Shown: positions 3 through 44,937 of the stretch, in pieces
Position numbering within the stretch: position 1 is the first letter of the stretch
Layout of the letters: each line of letters opens with the position of its first letter
The notes under the pieces: model-generated
The model's input: only the letters and a program-made list of their open reading frames with translations
What the model was told of the DNA's origin: nothing
The model's database searches: none
Source: Trypanosoma brucei
Taxonomy: Eukaryota
Reading direction: 5' to 3'
DNA: 64,000 nucleotides
NCBI GenBank assembly: GCA_000002445.1
Contig: CM000208.1
Coordinates: 1,696,001 to 1,760,000, forward strand
Translations under genes and position numbers: made by a program

Positions 3-1052
3 AAGACAATTCTTTTTGCAAACATTGCTGCCATAATTATAAACATCATTTCAGCTCTTTTGGCGTATCGATCAGGCTATATTGTGGCTTCTGCTGTAAT
101 GATGACATTATGTGCCCTGCACATACTGTGGTTTTACTTTGCACGGCACCGAATTCCTTTTGCTGCAGAACTTCTCAAGGCCTCTATCGATGTGTTGTCT
201 GGCTACAAGGCGGTATATTTATTCAATGTCATGTTATGTGTTGGTTGCACAGGATTACTTATACTGTGGGCAAACGCTTTTATGTGGGCGTTTCGGAGGG
301 TTAAATGGGAGACATCCGCTTCTTTCGGGTGGCCTCTGCTTGTGTTCCTTATGCTTTTCTTATTTTGGACATCGCAGGTGACAACTAATCTGATGCATGT
401 AACAACTGCTGGACTTACTGCTACATGGTACTTTGCTGGTAAGGAGAATATGCCAAAGAATCCCACCCTCGCCTCATTCAAGCGAGGTACCACCACAAGC
501 TTCGGCTCCATTTGCTTTGGGTCACTGCTTGTGGCAATTATCCGTCTCATACGGTGGCTCGTGTCAACCGCAGAAGACAGTGAACATGAAATATTACGCT
601 GTATATTCCTTTGTATTATTGGTTGTTTGGAGAGTTTGATGGAATACTTCAACACATACGCATTTGTTCATGTTGCCATCTATGGTTGTGGGTACATTGA
701 AGCAGCGAAAATGACATGGGAGTTGTGTAAACAGTGTGTGTTTTCTGCCCTATTCAATGACACTCTGATTGATGTAACACTCGGGCTACTTGCTACTTGT
801 GGTTCGCTACTGGTTGGTAGTGTTTTTGGTTTTCTCTTAAAATCCTGGGCAGCATTCGCGTTTGGTTTTGCCGTTTCTATATTGGTTCACCTCCTCATAT
901 TCTCCCCCGTGGGTAGTGCTGTAACCACCTTATTCGTATGTTATGCGGAAGTGCCTGAGGGCCTTGAGCACTCATCCCCTGACTTGTACGCGGCTCTTCA
1001 GAGAACTGACCAAAACGGCACATCAAATGGAGCAGCACCTCCACGTGTGTAA
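3..1052 (+). CDS. Choline-transporter-like (CTL/SLC44/PNS1 family) membrane protein, copy 1; 5'-partial, the gene begins upstream of the window
   Basis: The reading frame is open back to the window edge. The C-terminal block '...TAGLTATWYFAGKENMPKNPTLASFKRGTTTSFGSICFGSLLVAIIRLIRW...RCIFLCIIGCLESLMEYFNTYAFVHVAIYGCGY' fits the CTL/PNS1 signature I recall (WYF...FGS.AFGSL..A.....R.....CC.WCLE.F..F.N.NAY...AIYG). It is near-identical to copies 2 and 3. Confidence 0.7.
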   Translation, partial: KTILFANIAAIIINIISALLAYRSGYIVASAVMMTLCALHILWFYFARHRIPFAAELLKASIDVLSGYKAVYLFNVMLCVGCTGLLILWANAFMWAFRRVKWETSASFGWPLLVFLMLFLFWTSQVTTNLMHVTTAGLTATWYFAGKENMPKNPTLASFKRGTTTSFGSICFGSLLVAIIRLIRWLVSTAEDSEHEILRCIFLCIIGCLESLMEYFNTYAFVHVAIYGCGYIEAAKMTWELCKQCVFSALFNDTLIDVTLGLLATCGSLLVGSVFGFLLKSWAAFAFGFAVSILVHLLIFSPVGSAVTTLFVCYAEVPEGLEHSSPDLYAALQRTDQNGTSNGAAPPRV

Positions 1053-1569
1053 AACTTCTTAAGCTCATGCATATAAGGAGGATATGTGTTTGTCTCTCTT
1101 CTGCAAAAACTTTCCCTCCCATACCCAATTTCGCACACTCGCACCGTGTGAAGAAGAGTCAAATATCTTTTGTTTTTGATTCACTATATATAATGCACTG
1201 AAGCGTGTGTTATGCATGCAAATAAATTGATAACATCGCTGACTCTTCTTTTTGTTCTATTATATTACTCTGTTCGATTTGCTCTTGACTATTTTGTATT
1301 TTCTTTCCGTTTCATGTGATGGATGCGAGGGACATAACCACAACATATTGAATGTGTCGCGGTGTAAACTGCTCTGCTGTGAGCGGTCAGTATTGAGTTA
1401 ATATTTTTGTTCCGTGTGTTGAGGAAGTTGAATAGAGTCCTGATGCAGTCCACTCATGCGGTAAGCAGTGATGCGCCTTAGTGTGAAAATTCCTTTGATA
1501 CTGTGTGATTTGCACACTTCCATTCTTCTTCGTCACTGGAAGCTGTTGCTACTGCATACTAATGCATCA

Positions 1570-1620
1570 TCATTTCCTATTTCCTTTCCTCTTCCATAAT
1601 TTTCCATTTTCTCTGTTTTG
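1570..1620 (+). promoter_or_regulatory. Polypyrimidine tract and downstream AG (candidate trans-splice acceptor) upstream of CTL copy 2
   Basis: A CT-rich run 'catttcctatttcctttcctcttccataattttccattttctctgtttt' is followed by AG dinucleotides before the ATG at 1726. This is the usual kinetoplastid mRNA-processing signal. Confidence 0.5.
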
Positions 1621-1725
1621 TAATCAAACAAATAAGATATATTGCAAGTGTACGCAATTGCTATCCAGCAACAAAGGGCTATAGACACTATTATCTCAGT
1701 GATAAGGTATTGTTTATTTCTGAAG

Positions 1726-3243
1726 ATGACGCAAAAGGGGTACGTCGGAGTTCCTGAGGAACCATACAGGTCTAAATTTACTCCTGAGGTGGGACCTTAT
1801 TATGGATTTGAAGGAGAAGGAACACATGCTGTGCCGCTACAAGGAATACCGCTATACCAAGGTGAAGGTAATAATCAAGAAGGATTGAAACGTTTTGTGG
1901 TACAAGGGTATAAGGATGTGTGGGCTGCAATATTATACATTTTATGCATTCTTGCAACTATTGGGCTTGGAATATATAATATTTGTCAGCAGGGATTGCG
2001 TAGTTTAATATCTGCTGATGTAGTAAATATTTTTTGGGCTTGTAATGATGATAGTTGTATTGACTCGGTGTGTCTTTTCTTTCTTCTTGCTTTTGCTTTT
2101 TCAGTTATTGTATGTTTGTCCTCTTTGTCGTTGATGAAACGTTTTGCTAGCGGAATAATCAAGGGTTGCAACGTTATTTTGCTTATTTTTTATGTCGTTG
2201 CTTTCCTTTTTTCGGTATGGGCACTTAATAACGCTTTTGCTATTCCATGGTTTTGTATGCTGGTTGTGCATTTACTTTGGCTTTTCTTTGCAGGTCGGCG
2301 TATTCCTCTCGCTGCTGAGCTTCTGAAAAGCTCTTCTACTGTGGTATGTAACTACAAAGCACTGTGCGCAGTCAACGCCGTCCTGTTTGGTGCACATGTC
2401 TTTTTCAGTGTTATGTGGGCGTCTGTTATGAAACCACTATATGCGCAGCTGGCGAAGATGGAGTTAAATCCGAGCGCTGGTGGAGCTCGCAATGAGGAAG
2501 ATTTGACTCTCAACATTCTATTCCTAAGCTTGCTTGCTCTGCTGTTCGTCATGTTTTGGGCGACGCAGGTGACAACTAATCTGATGCATGTAACAACTGC
2601 TGGACTTACTGCTACATGGTACTTTGCTGGTAAGGAGAATATGCCAAAGAATCCCACCCTCGCCTCATTCAAGCGAGGTACCACCACAAGCTTCGGCTCC
2701 ATTTGCTTTGGGTCACTGCTTGTGGCAATTATCCGTCTCATACGGTGGCTCGTGTCAACCGCAGAAGACAGTGAACATGAAATATTACGCTGTATATTCC
2801 TTTGTATTATTGGTTGTTTGGAGAGTTTGATGGAATACTTCAACACATACGCATTTGTTCATGTTGCCATCTATGGTTGTGGGTACACTGAAGCAGCGAA
2901 AATGACATGGGAGTTGTGTAAACGGTGTTCTTGTGCTGCTTTGTTTAATGACAGACTGATTGATGTGACATTATTTGTTGCTTCATTTATTGGTTCGCTA
3001 CTGGTTGGTGTTATCGTCGGTCTTGTGTCTGCATCGGGAGGTGGATTTGCGTTTGGTTTCACCGTTTCTATATTGGTTCACCTTTTCATATTCTCCCCCG
3101 TGGGTAGTGCTGTAACCACCTTATTCGTATGTTATGCGGAAGTGCCTGAGGGCCTTGAGCACTCATCCCCTGACTTGTACGCGGCTCTTCAGAGAACTGA
3201 CCAAAACGGCACATCAAATGGAGCAGCACCTCCACGTGTGTAA
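1726..3243 (+). CDS. Choline-transporter-like (CTL/SLC44/PNS1 family) membrane protein, copy 2, full length
   Basis: The ORF runs 1642–3243, and the first ATG after the pyrimidine tract is at 1726 (MTQKGYVGVPEE...). It has multiple hydrophobic segments and the CTL C-terminal signature. The last ~150 nt of CDS plus ~590 nt downstream are identical to copy 1. Confidence 0.75.
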   Translation: MTQKGYVGVPEEPYRSKFTPEVGPYYGFEGEGTHAVPLQGIPLYQGEGNNQEGLKRFVVQGYKDVWAAILYILCILATIGLGIYNICQQGLRSLISADVVNIFWACNDDSCIDSVCLFFLLAFAFSVIVCLSSLSLMKRFASGIIKGCNVILLIFYVVAFLFSVWALNNAFAIPWFCMLVVHLLWLFFAGRRIPLAAELLKSSSTVVCNYKALCAVNAVLFGAHVFFSVMWASVMKPLYAQLAKMELNPSAGGARNEEDLTLNILFLSLLALLFVMFWATQVTTNLMHVTTAGLTATWYFAGKENMPKNPTLASFKRGTTTSFGSICFGSLLVAIIRLIRWLVSTAEDSEHEILRCIFLCIIGCLESLMEYFNTYAFVHVAIYGCGYTEAAKMTWELCKRCSCAALFNDRLIDVTLFVASFIGSLLVGVIVGLVSASGGGFAFGFTVSILVHLFIFSPVGSAVTTLFVCYAEVPEGLEHSSPDLYAALQRTDQNGTSNGAAPPRV

Positions 3244-3760
3244 AACTTCTTAAGCTCATGCATATAAGGAGGATATGTGTTTGTCTCTCTTCTGCAAAAA
3301 CTTTCCCTCCCATACCCAATTTCGCACACTCGCACCGTGTGAAGAAGAGTCAAATATCTTTTGTTTTTGATTCACTATATATAATGCACTGAAGCGTGTG
3401 TTATGCATGCAAATAAATTGATAACATCGCTGACTCTTCTTTTTGTTCTATTATATTACTCTGTTCGATTTGCTCTTGACTATTTTGTATTTTCTTTCCG
3501 TTTCATGTGATGGATGCGAGGGACATAACCACAACATATTGAATGTGTCGCGGTGTAAACTGCTCTGTTGTGAGCGGTCAGTATTGAGTTAATATTTTTG
3601 TTCCGTGTGTTGAGGAAGTTGAATAGAGTCCTGATGCAGTCCACTCATGCGGTAAGCAGTGATGCGCCTTAGTGTGAAAATTCCTTTGATACTGTGTGAT
3701 TTGCACACTTCCATTCTTCTTCGTCACTGGAAGCTGTTTCTACTGCATACTAATGCATCA

Positions 3761-3812
3761 TCATTTCCTATTTCCTTTCCTCCTCCATCATTTTCCATTT
3801 TCTCTGTTTTTT
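3761..3812 (+). promoter_or_regulatory. Polypyrimidine tract (candidate splice acceptor) upstream of CTL copy 3
   Basis: This is the same CT-rich element as 1570–1620, repeated as part of the 2.2-kb tandem unit. Confidence 0.45.
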
Positions 3813-3916
3813 AATCAAACAAATAAGATATATTGCAAGTGTACGCAATTGCTATCCAGCAACAAAGGGCTATAGACACTATTATCTCAGTGATAAGGTA
3901 TTGTTTATTTCTGAAG

Positions 3917-5470
3917 ATGACGCAAAAGGGGTACGTCGGAGTTCCTGAGGAACCATACAGGTCTAAATTTACTCCTGAGGGGGGACCTTATTATGGATTT
4001 GAAGGAGAAGGAACACATGCTGTGCCGCACAAGGGAATACCGCTATACCAGGTGAAGGTTAATATCAAAAAGGGATTGAAACGTTTTGTGGTCAAGGGTA
4101 TTAGGGATGTGTGGGCTGCAATTTAATACATTTATGCATTTCTTGCAACTATTGGCTTTGCGTGGTATAATACTTTTTCTCAAAATTTTTCTGAAATTAT
4201 ATAGGATAGTGTTGGAAAGTTATTCTGGCGCAGTTCTGACGAATGCTTTACTGTTTTTCTCTCTGTTCTTTTCTTTGTTTCTTCTGTCAGTTCAGTAATT
4301 TTATCCTTGTTTTCTTTATCGTTGATGAAGCGCTTTCCACATGATATGATCATCACGGCAAACCTTCTATTCTTTGCCGTGTGCATTGTTGGTTTTTTGT
4401 TGTCTATTCTTTGGGGAAATCTTTATTTACTTCTTTTATGTTTGGGTCTTTTTATTGTGCATTGGTTATGTTTTACGGAGTTGCGGAACCGCGTTCCATT
4501 CGCTGCTGAGCTTCTGAAAAGCTCTTCTACTGTGGTATGTAACTACAAAGCACTGTGCGCAGTCAACGTCGTCCTCTTTGGTATGTTTACCCTTTTTCTG
4601 GTTTTGTGGTGCTCCGCTTTCTCTGCACTGAGCAATGTGTTGAGTAAACAACCAGACCCGAGCAGTGGTGTGAGTGGTAAACGAGGCAATTCATTTTTGA
4701 TTATTTCTGTATATTTACTGCACCTAATGTTGCTGTTTGTCATGTTTTGGGCGACGCAGGTGACAACTAATCTGATGCATGTAACAACTGCTGGACTTAC
4801 TGCTACATGGTACTTTGCTGGTAAGGAGAATATGCCAAAGAATCCCACCCTCGCCTCATTCAAGCGAGGTACCACCACAAGCTTCGGCTCCATTTGCTTT
4901 GGGTCACTGCTTGTGGCAATTATCCGTCTCATACGGTGGCTCGTGTCAACCGCAGAAGACAGTGAACATGAAATATTACGCTGTATATTCCTTTGTATTA
5001 TTGGTTGTTTGGAGAGTTTGATGGAATACTTCAACACATACGCATTTGTTCATGTTGCCATCTATGGTTGTGGGTACACTGAAGCAGCGAAAATGACATG
5101 GGAGTTGTATAAACGGTGTTCTTGTGCTGCTTTGTTTAGTTGTTTTTTTGTTGACGCTATGTTGTGTCTATTTGCAGTACTAAGCGCCCTTCTTGTTTGT
5201 GCTGTTGTTTGTACTGCTTATGGTTTAGTCTTTGATTTATCGTTTGGTATTTTGCATATTACCGCTGAAATCTTCGTATTCAGTTTTGGTGTTTGTATGT
5301 TGGTTCACCTCTTCGTCTTTTCTTCCGTAACCAGTGCTGTAACCACCTTATTCGTATGTTATGCGGAAGTGCCTGAGGGCCTTGAGCACTCATCCCCTGA
5401 CTTGTACGCGGCTCTTCAGAGAACTGACCAAAACGGCACATCAAATGGAGCAGCACCTCCACGTGTGTAA
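3917..5470 (+). pseudogene. Choline-transporter-like gene copy 3 with a frameshifted N-terminal region; either a pseudogene or an N-terminally truncated variant (intact ORF 4307–5470)
   Basis: ATG at 3917 encodes MTQKGYVGVPEE... as in copy 2, but the frame terminates at 4126. Homology then continues in a second frame (4086–4298) and a third (4307–5470, containing 'SLSLMKRF' as in copy 2). Compared with copy 2 there is a visible 1-nt deletion near 4118–4125. The C-terminal 387 aa are intact and carry the CTL signature. Confidence 0.5.
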
Positions 5471-6107
5471 AACTTCTTAAGCTCATGCATATAAGGAGGA
5501 TATGTGTTTGTCTCTCTTCTGCAAAAACTTTCCCTCCCATACCCAATTTCGCACACTCGCACCGTGTGAAGAAGAGTCAAATATCTTTTGTTTTTGATTC
5601 ACTATATATAATGCACTGAAGCGTGTGTTATGTATGCAAATAAATTGATAACATCGCTGACTCTTCTTTTTGTTCTATTATATTACTCTGTTCGATTTGC
5701 TCTTGACTATTTTGTATTTTCTTTCCGTTTCATGTGATGGATGCGAGGGACATAACCACAACATATTGAATGTGTCGCGGTGTAAACTGCTCTGTTGTGA
5801 GCGGTCAGTATTGAGTTAATATTTTTGTTCCGTGTGTTGAGGAAGTTGAATAGAGTCCTGATGCAGTCCACTCATGCGGTAATAGGAGTGACATTCCAAT
5901 GTTTGTACATTATTTGTGTCGTTTTAAATTTATTACGTCTTTTTTTTTTTTGTGTGTGTGTGTGCTTCTTGTCTTTCTGATGTTGTGGTGATGTCTTCTA
6001 TCTGTTTTTTTTTCAGTTTCTATTCATTGCTTAATATTGTTTTTTTACTTCTTTTTTATTGTTGGTGTAGATACGGATTGTAGAAGTCGTGTTGTTGGTC
6101 TGCCTGA

Positions 6108-30725: not shown

Positions 30726-31748
<1,023 letters not shown>

Positions 31749-32367
31749 GAAAGTGGGCTTTTAGCCACTTCTTTTCTTTTTTGTTGCGTTTTACCCCCTA
31801 CTCATCAAGGTAAAATGCTCTCGCTTCAAACATTCAACCCGAAAGCAACCACGACGAGTGCCAATAGGAGATTGGCCGGGGGAAGCAGGAGGTACTTATA
31901 TCTTTTTCAATTCAACAAATTTATGGGGATATAACGCGCAATTTGTGGAGTTCTGTGACACAATTAAAAGGGGTCAGTTTTTTTTGTTTTTCTCTTGCAT
32001 CAAACAATACCCTCCAGGAAAATTAAAGCGGCGGGAGATTATAGCTAAGTGACTTCACAGAGGCACCAAAGGATGCCGTTAGCACAAAAAAACAGATTTC
32101 ATATGTACTACATGTCACACGAAAAAAAAAGAGAGTTAATTTCAGGAGTAGTATACTAAAAGAGCAGCCAAAAAACCAGAATAAAATGAGGAAACTTTTG
32201 ATACAAACACAAGAAAAAGTTTGTACGCCATTATTTGCTTAAATTTATCAAACATCAGATACAACCCGTTAGTATTAAACCCAGCCTGCGACAATTGCAA
32301 CACAACATTTAAAAATGTTCTCTCCTTATTTCATAACGAAAAGTGAAGTGCACAACACAGCACCAAC

Positions 32368-32682
32368 GCTGATAGAACATCAGGCAGCAAGGGTGACGCT
32401 ACTGCCAAATGCGCCATAAGTGATGCCTACACGAGGAGTGCCATTAAGGCTTTTGCCTCCAACTTTCCAGAGGAACTGAACCGCGTTTTCATAGCCCATG
32501 GGTTGCTTGACGAGAACGTTCACTTCTGTCACACGAGCGTTGTGGTTAATGCCATGATCGACGCGGGCAAACCGTGCTGCAGCGTTGTTTACCCTGGTGA
32601 GCGCCACTCCCTTCGGAAGAAGAAGGCATCGCGACTACACCATGACGCGATGCTCGCAAAGACACTTATGGAGGTGCTTTAA
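32368..32682 (+). pseudogene. Relic 3'-terminal fragment (last ~100 codons) of the DPP8-like serine peptidase gene, a duplicate of 42103–42417
   Basis: Nucleotides 32368–32682 are essentially identical to the last 315 nt of the peptidase CDS at 39865–42417 (…DGTSGSKGDATAKCAISDAY…LAKTLMEVL*). Upstream of 32368 the similarity stops and there is no ORF continuation. Confidence 0.8.
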
Positions 32683-34960
32683 TTGTGGACTACTTGCGTT
32701 GTGTAGTGTACTGGTAGCGGTTGCTTAATTACGAGGGAAACATGCTTGTTGCACATCTGTGTGGCTGGGGATGTGCTTGACCAATAATGATGATAACATC
32801 TGCGGCAGTGCTCGCGTGCACTTTAATTTATTTTTGTATGGGAAGAGTCACACACCATTTCTACCTTCCCTGCCTTCCGTGCTACAGTAGTTGTACCCGT
32901 TTCCGCTGTGCTGCAACCAATATGTTCATTTCACTATGCATTTCCAATACACACACACACACATGCACATACATTTTCCTTCTAGTATATGTACCGTAGC
33001 ACCACAACGAATGCCCACCACCCTTGTGAGAATGATGAGATTGCCATCATACTATTGGAAGACGAGTCTGAACCCTGATGCATTTTATCATGCGGCACTG
33101 ACGATCTTACATTGCGGTTAGTTGTGATCCCCTTGCCCATGTGTTTTTGTATGCTGCTTGCAGGAACGTGGCAGGCCACCGAGGTCACACTCGTGCTTCG
33201 CGTGGTTCAACAACATGGTCCCAGATTGTAGGTTCTTTGTTACTGGTGTGTATGATGAGAAACCTATTTTTATGTAACTCGGGAGAACTGAGCATATTAC
33301 CTGATGAGTAAACAATCAATCGTTAGATAGTAGCACTGATGTTACCTCTTGGTTTTATGTGTGTTGTAACTTTCCACTGTTGTCATTATCATCCCCTTTA
33401 ATAGCGAGTGGTCTTTGTGTGCATCTCCGCAAACCACTCGTCTACACCGGGGGAAAGATAAACGAGTGGAATGTTGTTAGTGTTGTGTGTCTGTGTCCGT
33501 CGTACTAGTAAAGGATGATGAGGATGCGGCCACCCCACGCGACGTGATGCGGTGTGTTGTTGACACTGCAGGCGTGTAGTTTCCCCTCCGCTGCCGTTGC
33601 AAAAGCAAACCCATTTTGGGCAACATACGCAGCCGCGCGCCACAAGACGCCTCCACCGCTCGACGGGGTGCCGCCATGACGCGGGTCCCGAGCCAAAGTC
33701 CCTCGCCCGAATTTCCGAAGGCAGTGAGTGCCTCGCGTGGGGAGACCTGCGCGCAGTAAAACCTCGTGCCGCTGGCGGTGCGGGGGCCACCGGCTGTGGT
33801 GGTTGATCCCCTCTGGTGGATCCCACAGCAGCAACTACGCGGGCCGTACTTTCGTCGGTGCGAGACTCCCCACCCGGTGGTATGAATGGCGGGCACCACT
33901 GAGTACACGTATAGCCATGAGCGGCATGTGCAGAAGAGGGCTTACAAAGGAGGCAGCGCGAGCGAGCGAATGGGTAACACTGGCGCGCTGCAGAGAAAGC
34001 AGCATCATTTCACCGCATCCGTTTGCGGGCGTGTGGTGCGCACCCGCTGACTCGCATATGCGTTCACATTCACCTCCTCCTTCTTTTCTCATTTTTATCC
34101 CCTACTTGAGAACAGATACAAACTACCCCACCTTGCCATACCCCTTCACACACCTATTATGTATTGTACCTGCACCATCACGTGATGAGCATTCAATTCA
34201 CATCGCGACACACCGATGATTCAAATGAGTGAGCTACGAATGGAATAAATTAAATCGAGAAAGAACAGCTGAGATGCCTACGTGCTTGTGCGCTTGTGCT
34301 ACTTCCCCTCTTGTAGTCCCCCTTCTATACCTGTGTCGTCGTCATTCCATCTTAATCGAAGGTGATGTCTGTTCCTGATGACGAGCACTCATTTCAAGCT
34401 GCGCGAGCATAAGCGTGTTGCTCCGTGGTCGGGTGACGTGCGAGACACCGCTCACACCCTATTACTGTGATGGGTGCCCACTAGCCTTGTGAGAATGATG
34501 AGATTGCCATCATACTATTGGAAGACGAGTCTGAACCCTGATGCATTTTATCATGCGGCACTGACGATCTTACATTGCGGTTAGTTGTGATCCCCTTGCC
34601 CATGTGTTTTTGTATGCTGCTTGCAGGAACGTGGCAGGCTACCGAGGTCACACTCGTGCTTCGCGTGGTTCAACAACATGGTCCCAGATTGTAGGTTCTT
34701 TGTTACTGGTGTGTATGATGAGAAACCTATTTTTATGTAACTCGGGAGAACTGAGCATATTACCTGATGAGTAAACAATCAATCGTTAGATAGTAGCACT
34801 GATGTTACCTCTTGGTTTTATGTGTGTTGTAACTTTCCACTGTTGTCATTATCATCCCCTTTAATAGCGAGTGGTCTTTGTGTGCATCTCCGCAAACCAC
34901 TCGTCTACACCAGGGGAAAGATAAACGAGTGGAATGTTGTTAGTGTTGTGTGTCTCTGTG
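32368..34960 (+). repeat. Segmental duplication copy 1: peptidase 3' fragment + direct repeat A (33012–33493) + GC-rich non-coding core B (33494–34467) + direct repeat A' (34468–34953)
   Basis: The block is repeated at 42103–44343 at roughly 99% identity; the ORF track shows matching spurious ORFs at 32380/42115, 33398/43133, 33728/43463 and so on. A and A' are ~99% identical to each other (spurious ORFs 33118–33315 and 34581–34778 differ by 1 aa). Confidence 0.9.
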
Positions 34961-35599: not shown

Positions 35600-36685
35600 T
35601 TGATTATGTCGGCCGGATCTCGTGGCCCACTTTCCCTGCTCATTGCCCGTGAACGTGATGCCAATGGTGTGAATGGCGATGTGAATGCAACGGCTGGACG
35701 CCTGCGTGACCGATACGATGGGAAGGGTGCCTCCGCCAGTGAGCGACGGCAGGATGCGACATCGCTGACCAACGAGTACTACGATATCGTTACAGATTTC
35801 TATGAATACGGTTGGGGGCAAAACTTCCACTTTGCTCCTCGGTACATGAATGAGACGTTCTACGAATCACTCGCACGGTATGAGTACTTTCTTGCGTACC
35901 ATGCTCAGTTCAAACCGACGGACACTGTGCTAGACGTTGGCTGCGGGATTGGTGGGCCAGCACGAAACATGGTACGGTTCACATCGTGCAACGTGATGGG
36001 TGTAAATAATAATGAGTATCAAATAAATCGCGCGCGGCAGCACGATTCCCGCTACGGGATGAGCGGTAAAATTAACTACACTAAGACCGACTTCTGTAAC
36101 ATGTGCTTTGGCGACAACGAGTTCGACGGAGCATACGCCATCGAGGCGACATGCCACTCAGAGAGTAAGGTAAAGTGCTATAGTGAAGTGTTTCGCGCTA
36201 TCAAACCTGGTGCCTACTTTATGCTGTACGAGTGGTGTTTGACGGACCTGTATGACCCGGCAAATGAGGAACACCAGCGTGTCCGGCATGGTATCGAACT
36301 TGGCGACGGTCTTCCTGAACTCGACACGATGCGGCAGGTTGTCGCAGCGGTAAAGGCCGCCGGTTTCGTTGTGGAAGAGAGCTTTGACATGGCGGAACGA
36401 TTCGAAAGTGGCGAGCCGAAGAGCGTCCCGTGGTATGAGCCACTGCAGGGGAGTTACACGTCGCTGAGTGGACTTCGGGCGACCCCTGCAGGGCGCTGGT
36501 TGACGAGTGTAACATGTCGTTTGCTCGAGGCTGTGCGCCTCGCACCGGCAGGTACATGTAAGGCGACAGAGATCCTCGAAGAAGGAGCGGTGAACCTTGT
36601 CAAGGGGGGCGAACTTGGGATATTCACGCCATCCTTCTTTGTGAAGGCGCGTAAACCGCGTCTTGGGGAAGAGCTGTCGTGCTAA
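35600..36685 (+). CDS. SMT: Sterol 24-C-methyltransferase (ERG6/SMT)
   Basis: 'YYDIVTDFYEYGWGQNFHFAP' is an SMT hallmark. The SAM-binding motif I 'VLDVGCGIGGP' and the sterol-MT C-terminal domain (YEWCLTDLYDP, ...GDGLPEL) are both present. Length is 361 aa. Confidence 0.9.
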   Translation: MIMSAGSRGPLSLLIARERDANGVNGDVNATAGRLRDRYDGKGASASERRQDATSLTNEYYDIVTDFYEYGWGQNFHFAPRYMNETFYESLARYEYFLAYHAQFKPTDTVLDVGCGIGGPARNMVRFTSCNVMGVNNNEYQINRARQHDSRYGMSGKINYTKTDFCNMCFGDNEFDGAYAIEATCHSESKVKCYSEVFRAIKPGAYFMLYEWCLTDLYDPANEEHQRVRHGIELGDGLPELDTMRQVVAAVKAAGFVVEESFDMAERFESGEPKSVPWYEPLQGSYTSLSGLRATPAGRWLTSVTCRLLEAVRLAPAGTCKATEILEEGAVNLVKGGELGIFTPSFFVKARKPRLGEELSC

Positions 36686-39110: not shown

Positions 39111-39864
39111 GGGACGCAATTCCGCTTTCCAACGTTTTGTTGCTTATGTATATGCTGGTTGCGGTGGTGTGTGTAATTTCCATTCGCTTATACACGGGCC
39201 GCTTGGTTGCTTTGGGAGAGACGGTTGACTTTCTTTACCGTGATGTTGCCCGCCGTTATAGTAACCCTACATTTTTCAATTGTTGTACCCTTCTGTTTTT
39301 ACCCCGCCATTATTTTAGTACCCATGCTATTGAGAGTTTTACTGGAATGGGAGTAATGGGGAAGTGTAGCTTAATATTTCTATACTTTCTCAAAAAATGA
39401 TGGACGTATTTGATTGATGTAGTGTCGATTTACATTGTGCCATTGCCGCGGTTTTATGAGCTGATCACAATCCCATTGTTTGTAGGTTGTGGAAGACCAG
39501 CGGCGGTCAGACAAAGGCGGTCGATGGTGGAACTCGTGGGCATGTCTACGGGTTGTGTAGTACGTGGGTGCGCAAGTGGGCATTACTCGTTGTTCTTATA
39601 CTTTGTGTTCTACCTTTGTGAAGTATGCCCCTTAAACAGCTTACCTGTAGCTCTATGCATCTATAGCTGTCAGTTCGCCACCCTTGCCAGCTTGGTGTGA
39701 GCATCTTTTCTTACTTGCAACAGCTTGTGTCTTGCGTTTTTCCTCTAACCTCCGCATCCCTAACCCTTAATGAGTGGGTATCTACTTTTTTGTTTTTAGT
39801 AACGAGCTTCATCACCTAGAAATAGTCCACCTCACGTAGTCAGTCAGGAAGAGAGGGGTGTAAA

Positions 39865-42417
39865 ATGCCGACCTTGCCTTTGTCGAAATATATTGATGAA
39901 CTAAAAGCTCTTGAGGGGCTCCTCGCTGTAGATGGGAAGCCTCGTATGTTGAAGTTTGTTGGTGATCAGCTGTATTGGCTGCAGGGTATGGATCAGGAAC
40001 TTTACAGTGTAAATATTGCAGATCACAACGCAACCCCGAGTCGCGTCATTGATCGCTGTCGGAAAGGTTGCACAGCTGCAGAAGGCAAGGAAGGTTCCAC
40101 TGTTGAGACAAAGGAGGAGGAGTTGCTGCGGGAGCGGCTGCGATCTCGCGTGACGGGCATCAGCAGCTACCGTGTACGGTGCAGGGACGGTGCTGTTTTC
40201 TTCACAAGTGGAGCAAACATATTTCTATACCGCCCCGCAAGCGGCAAACCACCGCTGAAAGTACTTGACTATATCGGTGATGAGGAACTGAAGCAACGCT
40301 TCTCCTCAGAGAAGAAACCATTTCTCTGCATTGAATACTTTTCCCACTTGGCGAATGATGCGGGTGCATGTGATTCAACCAAGGAGCGTGCCGACGTGAT
40401 CTCTTTTGTGTACAGCAATAACTTGTATATTGCGACCGTTGTGGAAGGTAGTGGTGAGGCCAGCCACTCAAGGGAACCACCCTTGAGGGTGAATGTGGAA
40501 TGCGTGACAACTTTCGGCGACGAGTTACACAGTTGTGGGGACGCCGACTACATTATCCAGGAGGAATTCGGTCGTTACACCGGGCACTACGCCACAGCTG
40601 AATATGTGCTGTTCAGCTATACAGACGTGTCCATGCTGCGCGAGGTGATGCTAATTGACGGTTCGACTGACTCTGGTGTGGAAAAGATGCCGTACTGCCG
40701 TGTTGGTGACCCGAATGCCCGCACTGTGCTCGTAGTGTACGAAAGGCGGACAAAGCGTTATCGTGTTGTCCCGAGCAGTGCTATTGCAGCCATTGCACCG
40801 TGGGCGGAGTACATGCCTCGGTTTGGGTTTAAGGACGAACACACCATTTACTTTTCTGTTCTCAGTCGCACGCAGGAGAAAATGTCTCTCCTTTCGTGCC
40901 GTATTAACTCTCTACCTGTTGTTGATGCGGAAGCACTTGCATCGTGCTTTTCCGAAGCAGCGCGTGACACTGATGTCGCAGCGGTGGCTGCAGGAACAAC
41001 ACTGGCTACCCGTGCGGCGACAGTCAATCTCACCACAGAGTGGCACCAGCATATACCGTGGGCATGGGTAGATGTCCAACCCGGTGTCGCACTTCACCTT
41101 TGCGGCAAGTATGAAGTGCTCGTTCGCCACGCCAATGAGAGTGAGAGTGCGCACAGTCATGTGTACGCCCGTGCTCAAGGGGGTGATGAGGGTTCGTGGC
41201 GACCACTTACCTGTGGCGCTTGGAACGTGAGAGCTGGAGGCCTTATAGTGAAGGACGACAGGGTTTTCTTCCTTGCTAATGCAAGAAACAGGCTGGAGAG
41301 TGTGCTATACAGCGTTGTGATAAACCTGGATGCAGGTCCTGTTTCTGCCGAGGAGCTGACACAGCTAACACCCTCCGGCGAGCACGTGTACTCTTTCGCA
41401 GTGTTGAACAATACACTTTGCTATGTGTCGAGCACTGCGACCACACCAGCAGAGCTTCACATCTCCTCAATAAACAACCCTGGAAGCCGCTGGGTCGTTC
41501 CGACGCGGCATCTGTGGGATGATACCAGCGAAAAGGCAGTCACCCCACGTACAACGCTCGAGGGACTCACCGTCCCGCACATTATCAACATCGTGAACCG
41601 CCGTGGTGTTCCACTCAGTGGCCGACTGTTTGTATCTCCTCACGCGGCACTAGGTAAGCTGAACCCTTTAGCAATGTATATCTATGGTGGTCCCCACGCA
41701 CAACTCGTGTACGACAGTGACTTCGACGGTGCCTGCAAGCCAATTTTCCAGATGCTGGCGAGCTTTGGTATATCCGTACTTGTCGCTGACGGTCAAATGA
41801 GCAATGCGAATGGCCTACGGGACCATAGCATCTGCAAGCACAGCATGGGGAGCTTTGAGACCTCCGATTACGTGGATTGGGTGCGGCACATGACAAACTG
41901 CAAGGAACTACCGTGTGGGTTTTGTGCGGATCCTGAACGGGTTGCCATCTTCGGCTGGTCGTATGGAGGTTATGCAACACTGCTTGCAATGTCGCAGGCT
42001 CCAGATGTGTTTAAGATAGGGTTTGCAGGGGCACCTGTGGGGGATTGGACTCTCTATGACACTGGATACACAGAGCGCTATATGGGTCTGCTGCACACCA
42101 ACGCTGATGGAACATCAGGCAGCAAGGGTGACGCTACTGCCAAATGCGCCATAAGTGATGCCTACACGAGGAGTGCCATTAAGGCTTTTGCCTCCAACTT
42201 TCCAGAGGAACTGAACCGCGTTTTCATAGCCCATGGGTTGCTTGACGAGAACGTTCACTTCTGTCACACGAGCGTTGTGGTTAATGCCATGATCGACGCG
42301 GGCAAACCGTGCTGCAGCGTTGTTTACCCTGGTGAGCGCCACTCCCTTCGGAAGAAGAAGGCATCGCGACTACACCATGACGCGATGCTCGCAAAGACAC
42401 TTATGGAGGTGCTTTAA
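39865..42417 (+). CDS. Dipeptidyl-peptidase 8-like serine peptidase (prolyl oligopeptidase family S9, alpha/beta-hydrolase C-terminal domain)
   Basis: This 850-aa ORF has a beta-propeller-like N-terminal two thirds and a C-terminal catalytic domain. The catalytic domain carries the nucleophile elbow 'IFGWSYGGYATLLAMSQ' (GWSYGG), a downstream Asp (HGLLDENVHFCHT) and a His (PGERHSL) in the S9 order Ser–Asp–His. Confidence 0.8.
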   Translation: MPTLPLSKYIDELKALEGLLAVDGKPRMLKFVGDQLYWLQGMDQELYSVNIADHNATPSRVIDRCRKGCTAAEGKEGSTVETKEEELLRERLRSRVTGISSYRVRCRDGAVFFTSGANIFLYRPASGKPPLKVLDYIGDEELKQRFSSEKKPFLCIEYFSHLANDAGACDSTKERADVISFVYSNNLYIATVVEGSGEASHSREPPLRVNVECVTTFGDELHSCGDADYIIQEEFGRYTGHYATAEYVLFSYTDVSMLREVMLIDGSTDSGVEKMPYCRVGDPNARTVLVVYERRTKRYRVVPSSAIAAIAPWAEYMPRFGFKDEHTIYFSVLSRTQEKMSLLSCRINSLPVVDAEALASCFSEAARDTDVAAVAAGTTLATRAATVNLTTEWHQHIPWAWVDVQPGVALHLCGKYEVLVRHANESESAHSHVYARAQGGDEGSWRPLTCGAWNVRAGGLIVKDDRVFFLANARNRLESVLYSVVINLDAGPVSAEELTQLTPSGEHVYSFAVLNNTLCYVSSTATTPAELHISSINNPGSRWVVPTRHLWDDTSEKAVTPRTTLEGLTVPHIINIVNRRGVPLSGRLFVSPHAALGKLNPLAMYIYGGPHAQLVYDSDFDGACKPIFQMLASFGISVLVADGQMSNANGLRDHSICKHSMGSFETSDYVDWVRHMTNCKELPCGFCADPERVAIFGWSYGGYATLLAMSQAPDVFKIGFAGAPVGDWTLYDTGYTERYMGLLHTNADGTSGSKGDATAKCAISDAYTRSAIKAFASNFPEELNRVFIAHGLLDENVHFCHTSVVVNAMIDAGKPCCSVVYPGERHSLRKKKASRLHHDAMLAKTLMEVL

Positions 42418-44343
42418 TTGTGGACTACTTGCGTTGTGTAGTGTACTGGTAGCGGTTGCTTAATTACGAGGGAAACATGCTTGTTGCACATCTGTGTGGC
42501 TGGGGATGTGTTTGACCAATAATGATGATAACATCTGCGGCAGTGCTCGCGTGCACTTTAATTTATTTTTGTATGGGAAGAGTCACACACCATTTCTACC
42601 TTCCCTGCCTTCCGTGCTACAGTAGTTGTACCCGTTTCCGCTGTGCTGCAACCAATATGTTCATTTCACTATGCATTTCCAATACACACACACACACATG
42701 CACATACATTTTCCTTCTAGTATATGTACCGTAGCACCACAACGAATGCCCACCACCCTTGTGAGAATGATGAGATTGCCATCATACTATTGGAAGACGA
42801 GTCTGAACCCTGATGCATTTTATCATGCGGCACTGACGATCTTACATTGCGGTTAGTTGTGATCCCCTTGCCCATGTGTTTTTGTATGCTGCTTGCAGGA
42901 ACGTGGCAGGCTACCGAGGTCACACTCGTGCTTCGCGTGGTTCAACAACATGGTCCCAGATTGTAGGTTCTTTGTTACTGGTGTGTATGATGAGAAACCT
43001 ATTTTTATGTAACTCGGGAGAACTGAGCATATTACCTGATGAGTAAACAATCAATCGTTAGATAGTAGCACTGATGTTACCTCTTGGTTTTATGTGTGTT
43101 GTAACTTTCCACTGTTGTCATTATCATCCCCTTTAATAGCGAGTGGTCTTTGTGTGCATCTCCGCAAACCACTCGTCTACACCGGGGGAAAGATAAACGA
43201 GTGGAATGTTGTTAGTGTTGTGTGTCTGTGTCCGTCGTACTAGTAAAGGATGATGAGGATGCGGCCACCCCACGCGACGTGATGCGGTGTGTTGTTGACA
43301 CTGCAGGCGTGTAGTTTCCCCTCCGCTGCCGTTGCAAAAGCAAACCCATTTTGGGCAACATACGCAGCCGCGCGCCACAAGACGCCTCCACCGCTCGACG
43401 GGGTGCCGCCATGACGCGGGTCCCGAGCCAAAGTCCCTCGCCCGAATTTCCGAAGGCAGTGAGTGCCTCGCGTGGGGAGACCTGCGCGCAGTAAAACCTC
43501 GTGCCGCTGGCGGTGCGGGGGCCACCGGCTGTGGTGGTTGATCCCCTCTGGTGGATCCCACAGCAGCAACTACGCGGGCCGTACTTTCGTCGGTGCGAGA
43601 CTCCCCACCCGGTGGTATGAATGGCGGGCACCACTGAGTACACGTATAGCCATGAGCGGCATGTGCAGAAGAGGGCTTACAAAGGAGGCAGCGCGAGCGA
43701 GCGAATGGGTAACACTGGCGCGCTGCAGAGAAAGCATCATCATTTCACCGCATCCGTTTGCGGGCGTGTGGTGCGCACCCGCTGACTCGCATATGCGTTC
43801 ACATTCACCTCCTCCTTCTTTTCTCATTTTTATCCCCTACTTGAGAACAGATACAAACTACCCCACCTTGCCATACCCCTTCACACGCCTATTATGTATT
43901 GTACCTGCACCATCACGTGATGAGCATTCAATTCACATCGCGACACACCGATGATTCAAATGAGTGAGCTACGAATGGAATAAATTAAATCGAGAAAGAA
44001 CAGCTGAGATGCCTACGTGCTTGTGCGCTTGTGCTACTTCCCCTCTTGTAGTCCCCCTTCTATACCTGTGTCGTCGTCATTCCATCTTAATCGAAGGTGA
44101 TGTCTGTTCCTGATGACGAGCACTCATTTCAAGCTGCGCGAGCATAAGCGTGTTGCTCCGTGGTCGGGTGACGTGCGAGACACCGCTCACACCCTATTAC
44201 TGTGATGGGTGCCCACTAGCCTTGTGAGAATGATGAGATTGCCATCATACTATTGGAAGACGAGTCTGAACCCTGATGCATTTTATCATGCGGCACTGAC
44301 GATCTTACATTGCGGTTAGTTGTGATCCCCTTGCCCATGTGTT
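42103..44343 (+). repeat. Segmental duplication copy 2: intact peptidase 3' end + A (42747–43228) + GC-rich core B (43229–44202) + truncated A' (44203–44343)
   Basis: This is a near-identical copy of 32368–34608, offset by 9735 bp. Similarity to copy 1 ends at ~44343, where unique sequence ('ttttatctctttgtgttttttttt') begins. Confidence 0.9.
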
Positions 44344-44382
44344 TTATCTCTTTGTGTTTTTTTTTGACATTAGTTTGTACGC

Positions 44383-44937
44383 ATGTCGTCTTTAGACTCT
44401 GTTAGAGAAGATATCCTCGATGTTTTTCATATTTTTGATGAAGACGGATCGGGCAGCATTACTATGCAAGAGCTCAAAAGGGCAATTTACACAATAACTG
44501 GAATTCGTATATCGCGTATTGATCTTTCCATACTGGTTCGGACATGTAAAGAAGAGATGTTGAAGGAGTCTGCCAGGAAATCGGAAGCTGGTGCTAATGT
44601 AGCTGGAAAAGCGGGGGAAAAGTTGTGGACACCTGAACCGGAGTCTGAGGTGAACACTGTTGATCCTCAGTTGTTTGCAGCTGTTGTGTTGAAGACGTTG
44701 AATAGACGAACGCAGGAGCAGGAACTGCTTTTTACCTTCCGTCTTCTCGAAGATAAGGATTATCCAGGTTTTATTACGAAAGATAGTTTGAAACGGGCAT
44801 CTGCAGATATTGACGAGCATTTGACAGATCAGGAGGTGAATGAGATGTTTGACAAACTTGTCACCGGGGTGTCCGCTGCTGCAATCGATTTTGTAACTTT
44901 TTCTTCGCTGATGGAAACACTACGAAAGTCGATTTAG
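44383..44937 (+). CDS. Small EF-hand calcium-binding-like protein
   Basis: A 184-aa ORF. 'FHIFDEDGSGSITMQELKRAI' is a canonical EF-hand loop, and there is a second degenerate EF-like region 'FRLLEDKDYPGFITKDSLKRA'. Confidence 0.5.
   Translation: MSSLDSVREDILDVFHIFDEDGSGSITMQELKRAIYTITGIRISRIDLSILVRTCKEEMLKESARKSEAGANVAGKAGEKLWTPEPESEVNTVDPQLFAAVVLKTLNRRTQEQELLFTFRLLEDKDYPGFITKDSLKRASADIDEHLTDQEVNEMFDKLVTGVSAAAIDFVTFSSLMETLRKSI

What the first reader, a model, noticed from the sequence alone, without database searches (positions are those of the whole stretch)
33012..34953. LTR-like A–B–A element: GC-rich non-coding ~1-kb core flanked by 480-bp direct repeats, present twice
A (33012–33493) and A' (34468–34953) are ~99% identical direct repeats. 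They bracket a visibly GC-rich ~975-bp core B that has no credible ORF on either strand; only overlapping ~140-aa nonsense ORFs, as expected for GC-rich non-coding DNA. The whole arrangement recurs at 42747–44343 with A' truncated, and the two B copies differ by only a few nucleotides. Long direct repeats flanking an internal region resemble a solo or degenerate LTR-type or other mobile-element remnant. Alternatively, B could be a structured non-coding RNA gene carried with a duplicated UTR. Neither explanation is covered by the protein-coding annotation.
Basis: seen in the sequence. Interest (0 to 1): 0.7.

Follow-up and report, generated by a model that had tools for sequence, protein, structure and literature searches.

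The report
Known trypanosome snoRNA cluster with MRP RNA
The "LTR-like" A–B–A element is a tandemly repeated, already published small-nucleolar-RNA gene cluster (TB10Cs1) of Trypanosoma brucei chromosome 10, and its GC-rich core is the parasite's RNase MRP RNA gene, so it is a real non-coding RNA locus and not a mobile element.

Summary
The repeats are real. A (33012–33496) matches A′ (34475–34959) at 99%, and 32361–34610 matches 42096–44345 at 99.8%. They are not LTRs. A–B–A is 1.33 copies of a 1463-bp tandem unit, and that array sits inside a 2250-bp segmental duplication 9735 bp apart.

Rfam finds the H/ACA-like snoRNAs TB10Cs1H1, H2 and H3 far above threshold. Published GeneDB coordinates (Tb927_10_v4 minus 1,696,000) fall exactly on C/D snoRNAs C4, C1 and C3. 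They also place "MRP RNA (Barth et al. 2008)" at 33478–33998 and 43213–43733, which is the GC-rich core.

I checked the core independently:
- It is about 80% identical to T. cruzi and T. melophagium at the syntenic site, better than the neighbouring coding genes.
- It is recognisable in three Leishmania-group (Leishmaniinae) loci.
- It is non-coding.
- It has an invariant CR-I/CR-V P4 helix with a bulged U.
- Its helices show compensatory changes (95.9% paired against about 42% when the partners are slid).

One extra observation: in all six species the conserved block is bounded by a C box and a D box. I could not check whether this is already published.

Verdict: already known, low interest.

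The parts
32361..32682 (+). Duplicated 3' end of the DPP8-like serine peptidase gene (gene fragment). It marks the left edge of the 2250-bp segmental duplication.
   Evidence: 32361–34610 = 42096–44345 at 99.78%. The full 850-aa gene is at 39865–42417.
33012..34474 (+). One complete 1463-bp unit of the TB10Cs1 tandem array (C4-H3-C1-H1-MRP-C3-H2).
   Evidence: Searches give the start-to-start spacing of 1463. Searches give the gene content.
33028..33104 (+). C/D snoRNA TB10Cs1C4. Identical copies at 34491–34567, 42763–42839 and 44226–44302.
   Evidence: GeneDB coordinates 1729028–1729104 in PMC3091756 Additional file 1, minus 1,696,000. C box ATGATGA at 33032 and D box CTGA at 33098. It guides LSU-beta Gm552 according to PMC6411936.
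33154..33228 (+). H/ACA-like snoRNA TB10Cs1H3. Copies at 34617–34688 and 42889–42960.
   Evidence: Rfam RF01524, 89–91 bits against a gathering score of 50. GeneDB places it at 33160–33228. AGA box at the 3' end.
33248..33342 (+). C/D snoRNA TB10Cs1C1. Copies at 34711–34805 and 42983–43077.
   Evidence: GeneDB coordinates. C box at 33252 and D box at 33336. The published silencing primers map at 33230 and 35163. It guides LSU-beta Cm601 and Cm609 according to PMC6411936.
33389..33461 (+). H/ACA-like snoRNA TB10Cs1H1. Copies at 34852–34924 and 43124–43196.
   Evidence: Rfam RF01522, 95–97 bits against a gathering score of 45. GeneDB coordinates.
33478..33998 (+). RNase MRP RNA gene as annotated in the literature (521 nt). 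An identical copy lies at 43213–43733. This is the GC-rich core.
   Evidence: PMC3091756 Additional file 2 lists MRP at Tb927_10_v4 1729478–1729998 and 1739213–1739733, citing Barth et al. 2008. The offset was calibrated on H1, H2 and H3. The two copies are identical.
33510..34055 (+). Conserved block of the MRP RNA as I delimit it, running from the C box (AUGAUGA, 33515–33521) to the D box (CUGA, 34047–34050). The copy lies at about 43245–43790.
   Evidence: Three-species and six-species alignments. Consensus folds pair the 5' arm with the 3' arm.
33696..33704 (+). CR-I, the 5' strand of helix P4 (AAG-U-CCCUC, with U33699 bulged).
   Evidence: Invariant in six species. It pairs with 33936–33943. 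There is a local Rfam RNase_MRP match at 33695–33732, model positions 71–101.
33936..33943 (+). CR-V, the 3' strand of helix P4 (GAGGGCUU, within GCAGAAGAGGGCUUA).
   Evidence: 8 of 8 pairs are standard in all six sequences.
33720..33732 (+). P8-like hairpin GGCA-GUGAG-UGCC just 3' of CR-I. Its loop resembles the MRP GARAR loop.
   Evidence: aligned to the Rfam MRP consensus GCAGAGAGUGC. The stem is invariant in six species (helix 6).
34178..34275 (+). C/D snoRNA TB10Cs1C3. Copy at 43913–44010.
   Evidence: GeneDB coordinates. C box GTGATGA at 34182 and D box at 34269. 78% identical to T. cruzi and T. melophagium.
34382..34448 (+). H/ACA-like snoRNA TB10Cs1H2. Copy at 44117–44183.
   Evidence: Rfam RF01523, 87.3 bits against a gathering score of 50. 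GeneDB coordinates.
34475..34959 (+). Partial second unit of the array (C4-H3-C1-H1).
   Evidence: 98.97% identical to 33012–33496. (Rfam hits for H3 and H1).
42096..44345 (+). Second copy of the duplicated segment: the true 3' end of the DPP8-like gene followed by 1.09 array units (C4-H3-C1-H1-MRP-C3-H2-C4). The EF-hand gene follows at 44383.

Best explanation
The window is Trypanosoma brucei TREU927 chromosome 10, with window coordinate = Tb927_10_v4 coordinate minus 1,696,000. The element is the published snoRNA gene cluster TB10Cs1.

One 1463-bp unit encodes, on the + strand and in the sense of the surrounding polycistronic unit:
- C/D snoRNAs C4, C1 and C3
- single-hairpin H/ACA-like snoRNAs H3, H1 and H2
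- a roughly 520–545-nt RNase MRP RNA between H1 and C3, which is the GC-rich core

The unit is repeated head to tail. Copy 1 has 1.33 units and copy 2 has 1.09 units, so a partial second unit looks like a flanking direct repeat. The whole array, together with the last 322 bp of the upstream peptidase gene, was then duplicated 9735 bp away.

Mechanism. Established for trypanosomatid snoRNA clusters and inferred here: the array is transcribed as part of a polycistronic precursor and cut into individual small RNAs. From the literature: the C/D RNAs guide 2'-O-methylation (C4: LSU-beta Gm552; C1: Cm601/Cm609) and affect LSU rRNA processing. By family assignment: the H/ACA-like RNAs guide pseudouridylation. 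Inferred from structure: the MRP RNA folds into a P/MRP-type catalytic core (P2, P3, P4 pseudoknot with a bulged U, P8-like hairpin) and acts in pre-rRNA cleavage.
For: Repeat geometry:
-.

snoRNA identity:
- Rfam hits for H1, H2 and H3 score 87–97 bits against gathering scores of 45–50.
- GeneDB coordinates in PMC3091756 map every annotated snoRNA onto a sequence with correctly placed C/D or AGA boxes, and give the same 9735-bp spacing for the two MRP copies.
- Published snoRNAi primers map to the locus.

Literature on the MRP RNA:
- Papers state that T. brucei has an MRP homologue.

Independent checks of the core:
- It is about 80% identical over 393–406 nt to T. cruzi and T. melophagium at the syntenic site, while flanking coding sequence is 71–76% identical.
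- nhmmer finds it in three Leishmaniinae loci.
- On a six-species alignment, 74 pairs are 95.9% standard against 39–46% when the partners are slid, and 10 pairs change on both sides against 0–3 when slid.
- P4 is invariant, and P2 shows a CG-to-UA compensatory change.
- Rfam RNase_MRP aligns locally to CR-I plus the P8-like hairpin.
- It is non-coding.
Against: - The Rfam RNase_MRP model does not recognise the RNA: the only match is local, at 8.8 bits and E = 3.1 against a gathering score of 50.
- The P8 loop is GUGAG or GCAAG rather than GARAR.
- MFE z-scores of the core are unremarkable, at -0.7 and -1.45.
- No canonical RNase P/MRP protein subunit has been found in Euglenozoa (PMC1636426), and a 2025 paper still says that RNase MRP could not be identified in trypanosomes (PMC12702573). 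The assignment as MRP therefore rests on RNA features and one primary paper, Barth et al. 2008, which I could not read.
- The covariation test used only six sequences from two clades, with Leishmaniinae insertions removed, and the tested structure was derived from the same alignment.
Confidence: 0.95

Rival explanations
1. The element is a degenerate LTR retrotransposon or other mobile-element remnant: two long terminal direct repeats (A, A′) flanking a non-coding internal region (B), inserted twice.
For: The layout of direct repeats of about 485 bp at 99% identity around a roughly 1-kb ORF-less core, present twice in 10 kb, is superficially LTR-like.
Against: - A and B are filled end to end with known small-RNA genes.
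- The arrangement is a tandem array whose copy number varies between species: 2 units in T. cruzi, 3 in T. melophagium, at least 4 in L. martiniquensis.
- The array sits at the same syntenic site in every species.
- There is no target-site duplication: the flanks are ACCACAACGAA and GCTTTGAGTTG.
- There are no inverted repeats.
- The ORFs have no Pfam match.
- The second copy is explained by a segmental duplication that also carries the 3' end of the upstream gene.
Confidence: 0.01
2. The GC-rich core is a conserved structured RNA of the RNase P/MRP superfamily but is not a functional MRP orthologue. It could be a relic or a repurposed P-like RNA, or it could work with a non-canonical protein set.
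For: - CR-V (GCAGAAGAGGGCUUA) looks as much like bacterial P RNA CR-V (ACAGAACCCGGCUUA, recalled from my own knowledge) as like human MRP.
- The Rfam MRP model fails to recognise the RNA.
- No Pop/Rpp subunits have been found in Euglenozoa.
- The RNA ranges from about 545 nt to about 1.8 kb between lineages and is framed by C and D boxes, unlike any canonical MRP RNA.
Against: - T. brucei RNase P activity is fully accounted for by the PRORP proteins (PMC3807811 and PMC3858429).
- The hairpin directly 3' of CR-I aligns to the MRP-specific P8.
- The Michaeli laboratory reports it as the MRP homologue and a review cites it as acting in early rRNA processing.
Confidence: 0.12
3. The region is merely duplicated 3'-UTR or intergenic DNA with no function of its own, and its repeats are a by-product of local gene duplication.
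For: The second copy does lie in a segmental duplication that starts inside a coding gene.
Against: Intergenic DNA does not stay 78–86% identical between T. brucei and T. cruzi in discrete blocks of 60–400 nt that coincide with Rfam families and show compensatory base-pair changes.
Confidence: 0.01

Closest known systems
Trypanosoma brucei snoRNA cluster TB10Cs1 (GeneDB Tb10_snoRNA_0001–0017; Rfam RF01522, RF01523, RF01524)
   Same: It is the same locus. Coordinates, gene order, C/D and AGA boxes, tandem reiteration and the 9735-bp second copy all match.
   Different: Nothing differs. The window simply carries no annotation.
RNase MRP RNA (Rfam RF00030; human RMRP, yeast NME1)
   Same: - CR-I (AAAGUCCC) and CR-V (GGGCUUA) form a P4 helix with a bulged U.
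- P2 and P3 lie 5' of CR-I.
- A P8-like hairpin lies directly 3' of CR-I.
- It has been reported as the T. brucei MRP homologue.
   Different: - It is about twice the length of human MRP in Trypanosoma and 1.5–1.8 kb in Leishmaniinae.
- It falls far below the Rfam threshold.
- Its P8 loop is GNRAG rather than GARAR.
- It is encoded inside a polycistronic, tandemly repeated snoRNA cluster rather than as a solitary Pol III gene.
- It is framed by C and D boxes.
- No canonical protein subunits are known in this lineage.
Trypanosoma brucei telomerase RNA, which carries a C/D snoRNA domain (Gupta et al. 2013, cited in PMC4993307)
   Same: Both are long functional ncRNAs of trypanosomes that carry C and D boxes. 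This suggests that C/D core proteins serve as a general biogenesis and stability module.
   Different: Telomerase RNA is trans-spliced and lies at a different locus. In the MRP RNA here, the C and D boxes sit at the two extreme ends of the conserved block and are joined by a long terminal helix. Binding of C/D proteins to this RNA was not tested here.
LTR retrotransposons or solo LTRs of kinetoplastids (VIPER/SIRE)
   Same: Only the superficial layout of direct repeats flanking an internal region is shared.
   Different: There is no target-site duplication, no LTR termini, no gag/pol remnant and no dispersed copies, and the interval is filled with conserved RNA genes.

Membership tests
TB10Cs1 snoRNA cluster (T. 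brucei chromosome 10) | H/ACA-like members match the curated Rfam models TB10Cs1H1, H2 and H3 above gathering score. | tested here: met
   eight hits at 87–97 bits against gathering scores of 45–50, all full length.
TB10Cs1 snoRNA cluster (T. brucei chromosome 10) | Published genome coordinates of C1, C3, C4, H1–H3 and MRP coincide with the element. | tested here: met
   a single offset of 1,696,000 places all 17 snoRNA annotations and both MRP annotations on the repeats. The 1463-bp and 9735-bp spacings are reproduced.
TB10Cs1 snoRNA cluster (T. brucei chromosome 10) | C/D members carry a C box (RUGAUGA) near the 5' end and a D box (CUGA) near the 3' end. H/ACA-like members end in an AGA box. 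| tested here: met
RNase P/MRP RNA superfamily (Rfam clan CL00002) | The conserved regions CR-I and CR-V pair to form the long-range helix P4 with a bulged uridine. | tested here: met
   AAG(U)CCCUC at 33696–33704 pairs with GAGGGCUU at 33936–33943. All 8 pairs are standard and invariant in six species. Because they are invariant there is no covariation.
RNase MRP RNA (RF00030) | The sequence scores above the Rfam gathering threshold. | tested here: not met
   the only match is local (model positions 71–101), at 8.8 bits and E = 3.1 against a gathering score of 50.
RNase MRP RNA (RF00030) | P2 and P3 lie 5' of CR-I, with the 3' strand of P2 lying 5' of CR-V. | tested here: met
   helix 1 (33656–33661 with 33919–33924) is 100% paired with one CG-to-UA compensatory pair between Trypanosoma and Leishmaniinae. 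Helix 2 (33664–33690) is 98% paired. Whether P3 has the eukaryal helix–loop–helix form was not resolved.
RNase MRP RNA (RF00030) | A P8 hairpin with a GARAR loop lies 3' of CR-I. This feature separates MRP from P RNA. | tested here: inconclusive
   the GGCA/UGCC stem is invariant and aligns to the Rfam P8, but the loop is GUGAG (T. brucei) or GCAAG (the other five), so position 2 deviates.
RNase MRP RNA (RF00030) | It is part of an RNP with Pop/Rpp proteins that cleaves pre-rRNA. | not testable with these tools
   The literature conflicts. PMC6411936 and PMC6562600 cite an MRP homologue that acts in rRNA processing. PMC1636426 and PMC12702573 report that no subunits or orthologue have been identified.
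Box C/D snoRNA architecture (applied to the MRP RNA) | A C box at the 5' end and a D box at the 3' end, brought together by pairing of the termini. | tested here: met
   each of six species has exactly one RTGATGA at the 5' edge of the conserved block and a CTGA at the aligned 3' edge; in L008, L011 and L014 other CTGA tetramers also fall inside the scanned interval. Leishmaniinae have a 6-bp terminal stem GAGAGA/UCUCUC. Trypanosoma has only 1–3 bp there. Consensus folds pair the 5' and 3' arms.
Box C/D snoRNA architecture (applied to the MRP RNA) | The ends of the mature RNA include both boxes, and the RNA binds SNU13, NOP56, NOP58 and fibrillarin. | not testable with these tools
   The literature annotation (33478–33998) ends 49 nt before the D box, so the ends need to be mapped experimentally.
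LTR retrotransposon or solo LTR | A target-site duplication flanks the element, and there are LTR termini or inverted ends. | tested here: not met
   One search shows that the flanks differ. One search finds no inverted repeats.
LTR retrotransposon or solo LTR | The internal region has gag/pol or recognisable remnants. | tested here: not met
   the four ORFs in B have no Pfam match. B is occupied by the MRP, C3 and H2 genes.

The most novel reading that the evidence does not exclude
The trypanosomatid RNase MRP RNA may be a chimera in which a P/MRP-type catalytic core is inserted into a box C/D snoRNA frame.

What the data show:
- A C box at the extreme 5' end and a D box at the extreme 3' end are conserved from Trypanosoma (about 545 nt) to Leishmaniinae (1.5–1.8 kb).
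- The two boxes are joined by a long P1-like rod of variable length.

What this would explain:
- How the RNA is excised from, and stabilised after release from, a polycistronic snoRNA-cluster precursor.
- How an MRP RNA can persist in a lineage where no canonical Pop/Rpp proteins have been found, if C/D core proteins supply part of the protein scaffold.

This may already be described in Barth et al. 2008, which I could not read. The name TB10Cs1C2 suggests that a C/D snoRNA was once predicted at this position.
Probability: 0.3. Interest if true: 0.55.

Novelty: already known. Interest (0 to 1): 0.2.

Why it matters
For the genome scan, this closes the finding. It is an annotated and experimentally studied ncRNA locus, not a new repeat family or mobile element.

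Two practical points remain.
- The trypanosome MRP RNA is invisible to Rfam and to protein-based annotation. Public annotations even call spurious proteins over it, and papers as recent as 2025 state that RNase MRP has not been identified in trypanosomes. A covariance model built from the alignment made here would fix that.
- If the C/D-box framing of the MRP RNA is real and unreported, it offers a concrete, testable explanation for how a ribozyme RNA survives without its canonical protein partners.

Tried and rejected
Analyses that were uninformative:
- MFE z-scores of the GC-rich core on both strands were unremarkable.
- Rfam at gathering threshold and at E ≤ 5 did not find MRP. Only a scan of the 631-nt core at E ≤ 10 gave a weak local hit.
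- A metagenome scan with the 22-base CR-I pattern found nothing.

Searches that came back empty or incomplete:
- An exact-protein look-up of the window's DPP8-like gene found nothing. Its 100%-identity cluster representative did return loci.
- The T. vivax, T. theileri and Leptomonas seymouri contigs end at or just before the array.
- The T. conorhini and T. grayi loci keep only a C4-like snoRNA at this site.

Papers I could not read:
- Barth et al. 2008 and Liang et al. 2005 are not in the held library, and the cap on papers was then reached. I therefore could not check the published MRP secondary structure, its mapped ends, or the identity of TB10Cs1C2.

Ideas considered and dropped:
- Telomerase RNA: no CCCTAA template is visible in B.
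- The grumpy/RBP7 lncRNA locus: the neighbouring genes are different.
- A small conserved protein: frame-breaking indels rule it out.
- LTR element: see the rival explanations.
Full report
**Observation**

A self-comparison of the window confirms the repeats.
- 33012–33496 equals 34475–34959 (485 bp, 98.97%).
- 32361–34610 equals 42096–44345 (2250 bp, 99.78%).
- Short further copies of the first 136 bp lie at 44210–44345.

The true register is 1463 bp. B (33497–34474) is 56% GC and its 33510–34055 part is 63%, against 48% for the window. The ORFs in B are overlapping ones of 109–163 aa on both strands and have no Pfam match. It is not an element bracketed by terminal repeats.

**What the locus is**

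All large ORFs in the window are on the + strand. Those around the element are cytosolic-type GAPDH (30753–31748), sterol methyltransferase (35600–36685), a DPP8-like S9 peptidase (39865–42417) and an EF-hand protein (44383–44937). The peptidase matches the T. brucei gambiense protein at 100% identity as reported, although an exact-sequence look-up of the window's own protein found no record.

Rfam at gathering threshold gives eight full-length hits to the trypanosomatid H/ACA-like snoRNAs TB10Cs1H1, H2 and H3, at 87–97 bits against cut-offs of 45–50. These lie in A (H3, H1) and at the 3' end of B (H2).

The supplementary tables of PMC3091756 list GeneDB coordinates for TB10Cs1C1, C3, C4 and H1–H3, and in a list of unannotated RNAs they give [quoted passage not shown]. 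Calibrating on the Rfam hits gives window coordinate = chromosome coordinate minus 1,696,000. With that single offset:
- every annotated snoRNA lands on a sequence with a C box 4–5 nt from its 5' end and a D box 3–4 nt from its 3' end, or with an AGA box at its 3' end;
- copy numbers match (C4 four times, C1 three times, and so on);
- the two MRP annotations fall at 33478–33998 and 43213–43733, are identical, and are 9735 bp apart, as in the window.

Primers used to silence TB10Cs1C1 and C4 (PMC6411936 supplement) also map here. The unit order is C4-H3-C1-H1-MRP-C3-H2.

**Independent check of the GC-rich core**

I fetched the syntenic region of other trypanosomatids through orthologues of the peptidase. 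Between the peptidase and EF-hand genes:
- T. cruzi has a 1418-bp-period array.
- T. melophagium has three units of about 1440 bp.
- L. martiniquensis has at least four units of 2569 bp.
- An ENA trypanosomatid contig has two units of 2110 bp.

The snoRNAs are 70–86% identical between species. The core (33579–33969) is about 80% identical over 393–406 nt. That is better than the neighbouring coding sequences, which are 71–76% identical.

The core is not coding. Indels of 1, 2, 4, 7 and 8 nt break every frame, and substitutions show no codon phase.

Blocks conserved in all six species include GGGUCCCGAGCNAAAGUCCCUCGCCC and GCAGAAGAGGGCUUA. These have the form of CR-I and CR-V of RNase P/MRP RNAs. 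AAG(U)CCCUC (33696–33704) pairs with GAGGGCUU (33936–33943), leaving a bulged U, which is the hallmark of helix P4.

A scan of the core alone at a relaxed threshold aligns Rfam RNase_MRP positions 71–101 (CR-I plus the P8 hairpin) to 33695–33732. The score is only 8.8 bits with E = 3.1.

I then tested a structure on a six-species alignment of the core (A1), from which the Leishmaniinae insertions had been removed. The structure comprised P2, P3, the P4 pseudoknot, a P8-like hairpin and further helices.
- It has 74 pairs, of which 95.9% of cells are standard pairs, against 39–46% when the partners are slid by one to three columns.
- Ten pairs change on both sides, against 0–3 when slid.
- P4 is invariant.
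- P2 carries a clean CG-to-UA switch between Trypanosoma and Leishmaniinae.

Caveats apply. There are only six sequences from two clades, and the nested helices were derived from the same alignment. MFE z-scores alone are unremarkable.

**Mechanism**

The following comes from established knowledge of trypanosomatid snoRNA clusters and from the cited papers. The array is transcribed with the surrounding + strand polycistron and processed into individual RNAs.
- C4 guides LSU-beta Gm552, C1 guides Cm601/Cm609, and both affect LSU rRNA maturation (PMC6411936).
- The H/ACA-like RNAs guide pseudouridylation.
- The MRP RNA is cited as acting in early pre-rRNA processing.

The A–B–A appearance is simply a partial second unit. 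The recurrence at 42096–44345 is a segmental duplication that dragged along the last 322 bp of the peptidase gene, leaving a gene fragment at 32361–32682.

**Extra observation**

In all six species the conserved block begins with the only RTGATGA in the interval and ends, at the aligned position, with a CTGA (other CTGA tetramers occur in some of the scanned intervals). In T. brucei these are at 33515 and 34047. The span is 537–552 nt in Trypanosoma and 1515–1791 nt in Leishmaniinae.

Leishmaniinae add a 6-bp terminal stem, GAGAGA/UCUCUC. Consensus folds in both lineages pair the 5' arm with the 3' arm into a long rod with many compensatory changes. The Trypanosoma trio alone shows 26 such pairs.

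This looks like an MRP core carried in a box C/D frame, which recalls the C/D domain of trypanosome telomerase RNA. Three points weigh against over-reading it.
- The published annotation ends at 33998, before the D box.
- The terminal stem in Trypanosoma is only 1–3 bp.
- I could not read Barth et al. 2008 or Liang et al. 2005 to see whether this is already described.

**Comparison with what is known, and novelty**

The locus is the published TB10Cs1 cluster with the published MRP RNA gene, so it is already known. As an MRP RNA it meets the P4, P2 and P3 criteria. It fails the Rfam threshold and has a deviant P8 loop, and no canonical protein subunits are known in this lineage.

The LTR reading fails on target-site duplication, termini, internal coding remnants and dispersal.

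Interest is low. The only open thread is the C/D framing of the MRP RNA.

Noticed in passing
window 39357–39395 (compare L001/L002 5019–9530): The window lacks a roughly 4.5-kb segment carrying a 1166-aa cullin gene. T. b. gambiense DAL972 and GCA_003543875.1 have this segment between the 320-aa gene and the DPP8-like gene, and it is syntenic in every other trypanosomatid locus fetched. Only 37 unmatched bases stand in its place, and tblastn finds no cullin anywhere in the window. This could be a strain deletion or an assembly collapse in the duplicated region.
   Followed up: partly
window 32361–32682: A 322-bp copy of the 3' end of the DPP8-like peptidase gene lies downstream of GAPDH with no upstream remainder of the gene. 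It is a gene fragment left by the segmental duplication. In GCA_003543875.1 (L001) the whole SMT–320aa–cullin–DPP8–snoRNA block appears to be tandemly duplicated instead.
   Followed up: partly
L008 13496–14002, 14941–15447, 16381–16887; L005 14039–14497: Public gene calls place 168-aa "proteins" over each T. melophagium MRP RNA copy, starting at the ATG inside the C box. A 152-aa "protein" is called over T. cruzi snoRNAs. These are spurious ORFs in GC-rich ncRNA genes.
   Followed up: partly
L011 14223–15737; L014 13346–15136; L015 9917–11685: In Leishmaniinae the C-box-to-D-box block that contains the MRP core is 1.5–1.8 kb, three times the Trypanosoma length. The extra sequence is mostly in the paired 5' and 3' arms and in expansion hairpins.
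   Followed up: partly
L007 12839–12926; L010 9081–9153: T. conorhini and T. grayi have only a C4-like snoRNA between the DPP8-like and EF-hand genes, with no MRP or other cluster members. Either the cluster has moved or these assemblies collapsed the array.
   Followed up: no
window 363–5882: A separate set of tandem duplications (for example 363–1968 = 2554–4158 at 95.5%, and 2540–2947 = 4731–5138 at 99.5%) overlaps ORFs 60–1052, 1642–3243 and 4307–5470. It looks like a tandem gene family at the start of the window.
   Followed up: no
window 34065–34120: A polypyrimidine tract (CACCTCCTCCTTCTTTTCTCATTTTTATCCCC) followed by AG dinucleotides lies just after the MRP D box and before snoRNA C3. 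It could be a trans-splicing or processing signal within the cluster precursor.
   Followed up: no
window 33511–33575: The name TB10Cs1C2 appears in published expression tables but not in the GeneDB coordinate list. By number order it should lie between H1 and C3, that is, inside the MRP gene. It may be an early C/D prediction anchored on the MRP C box.
   Followed up: partly
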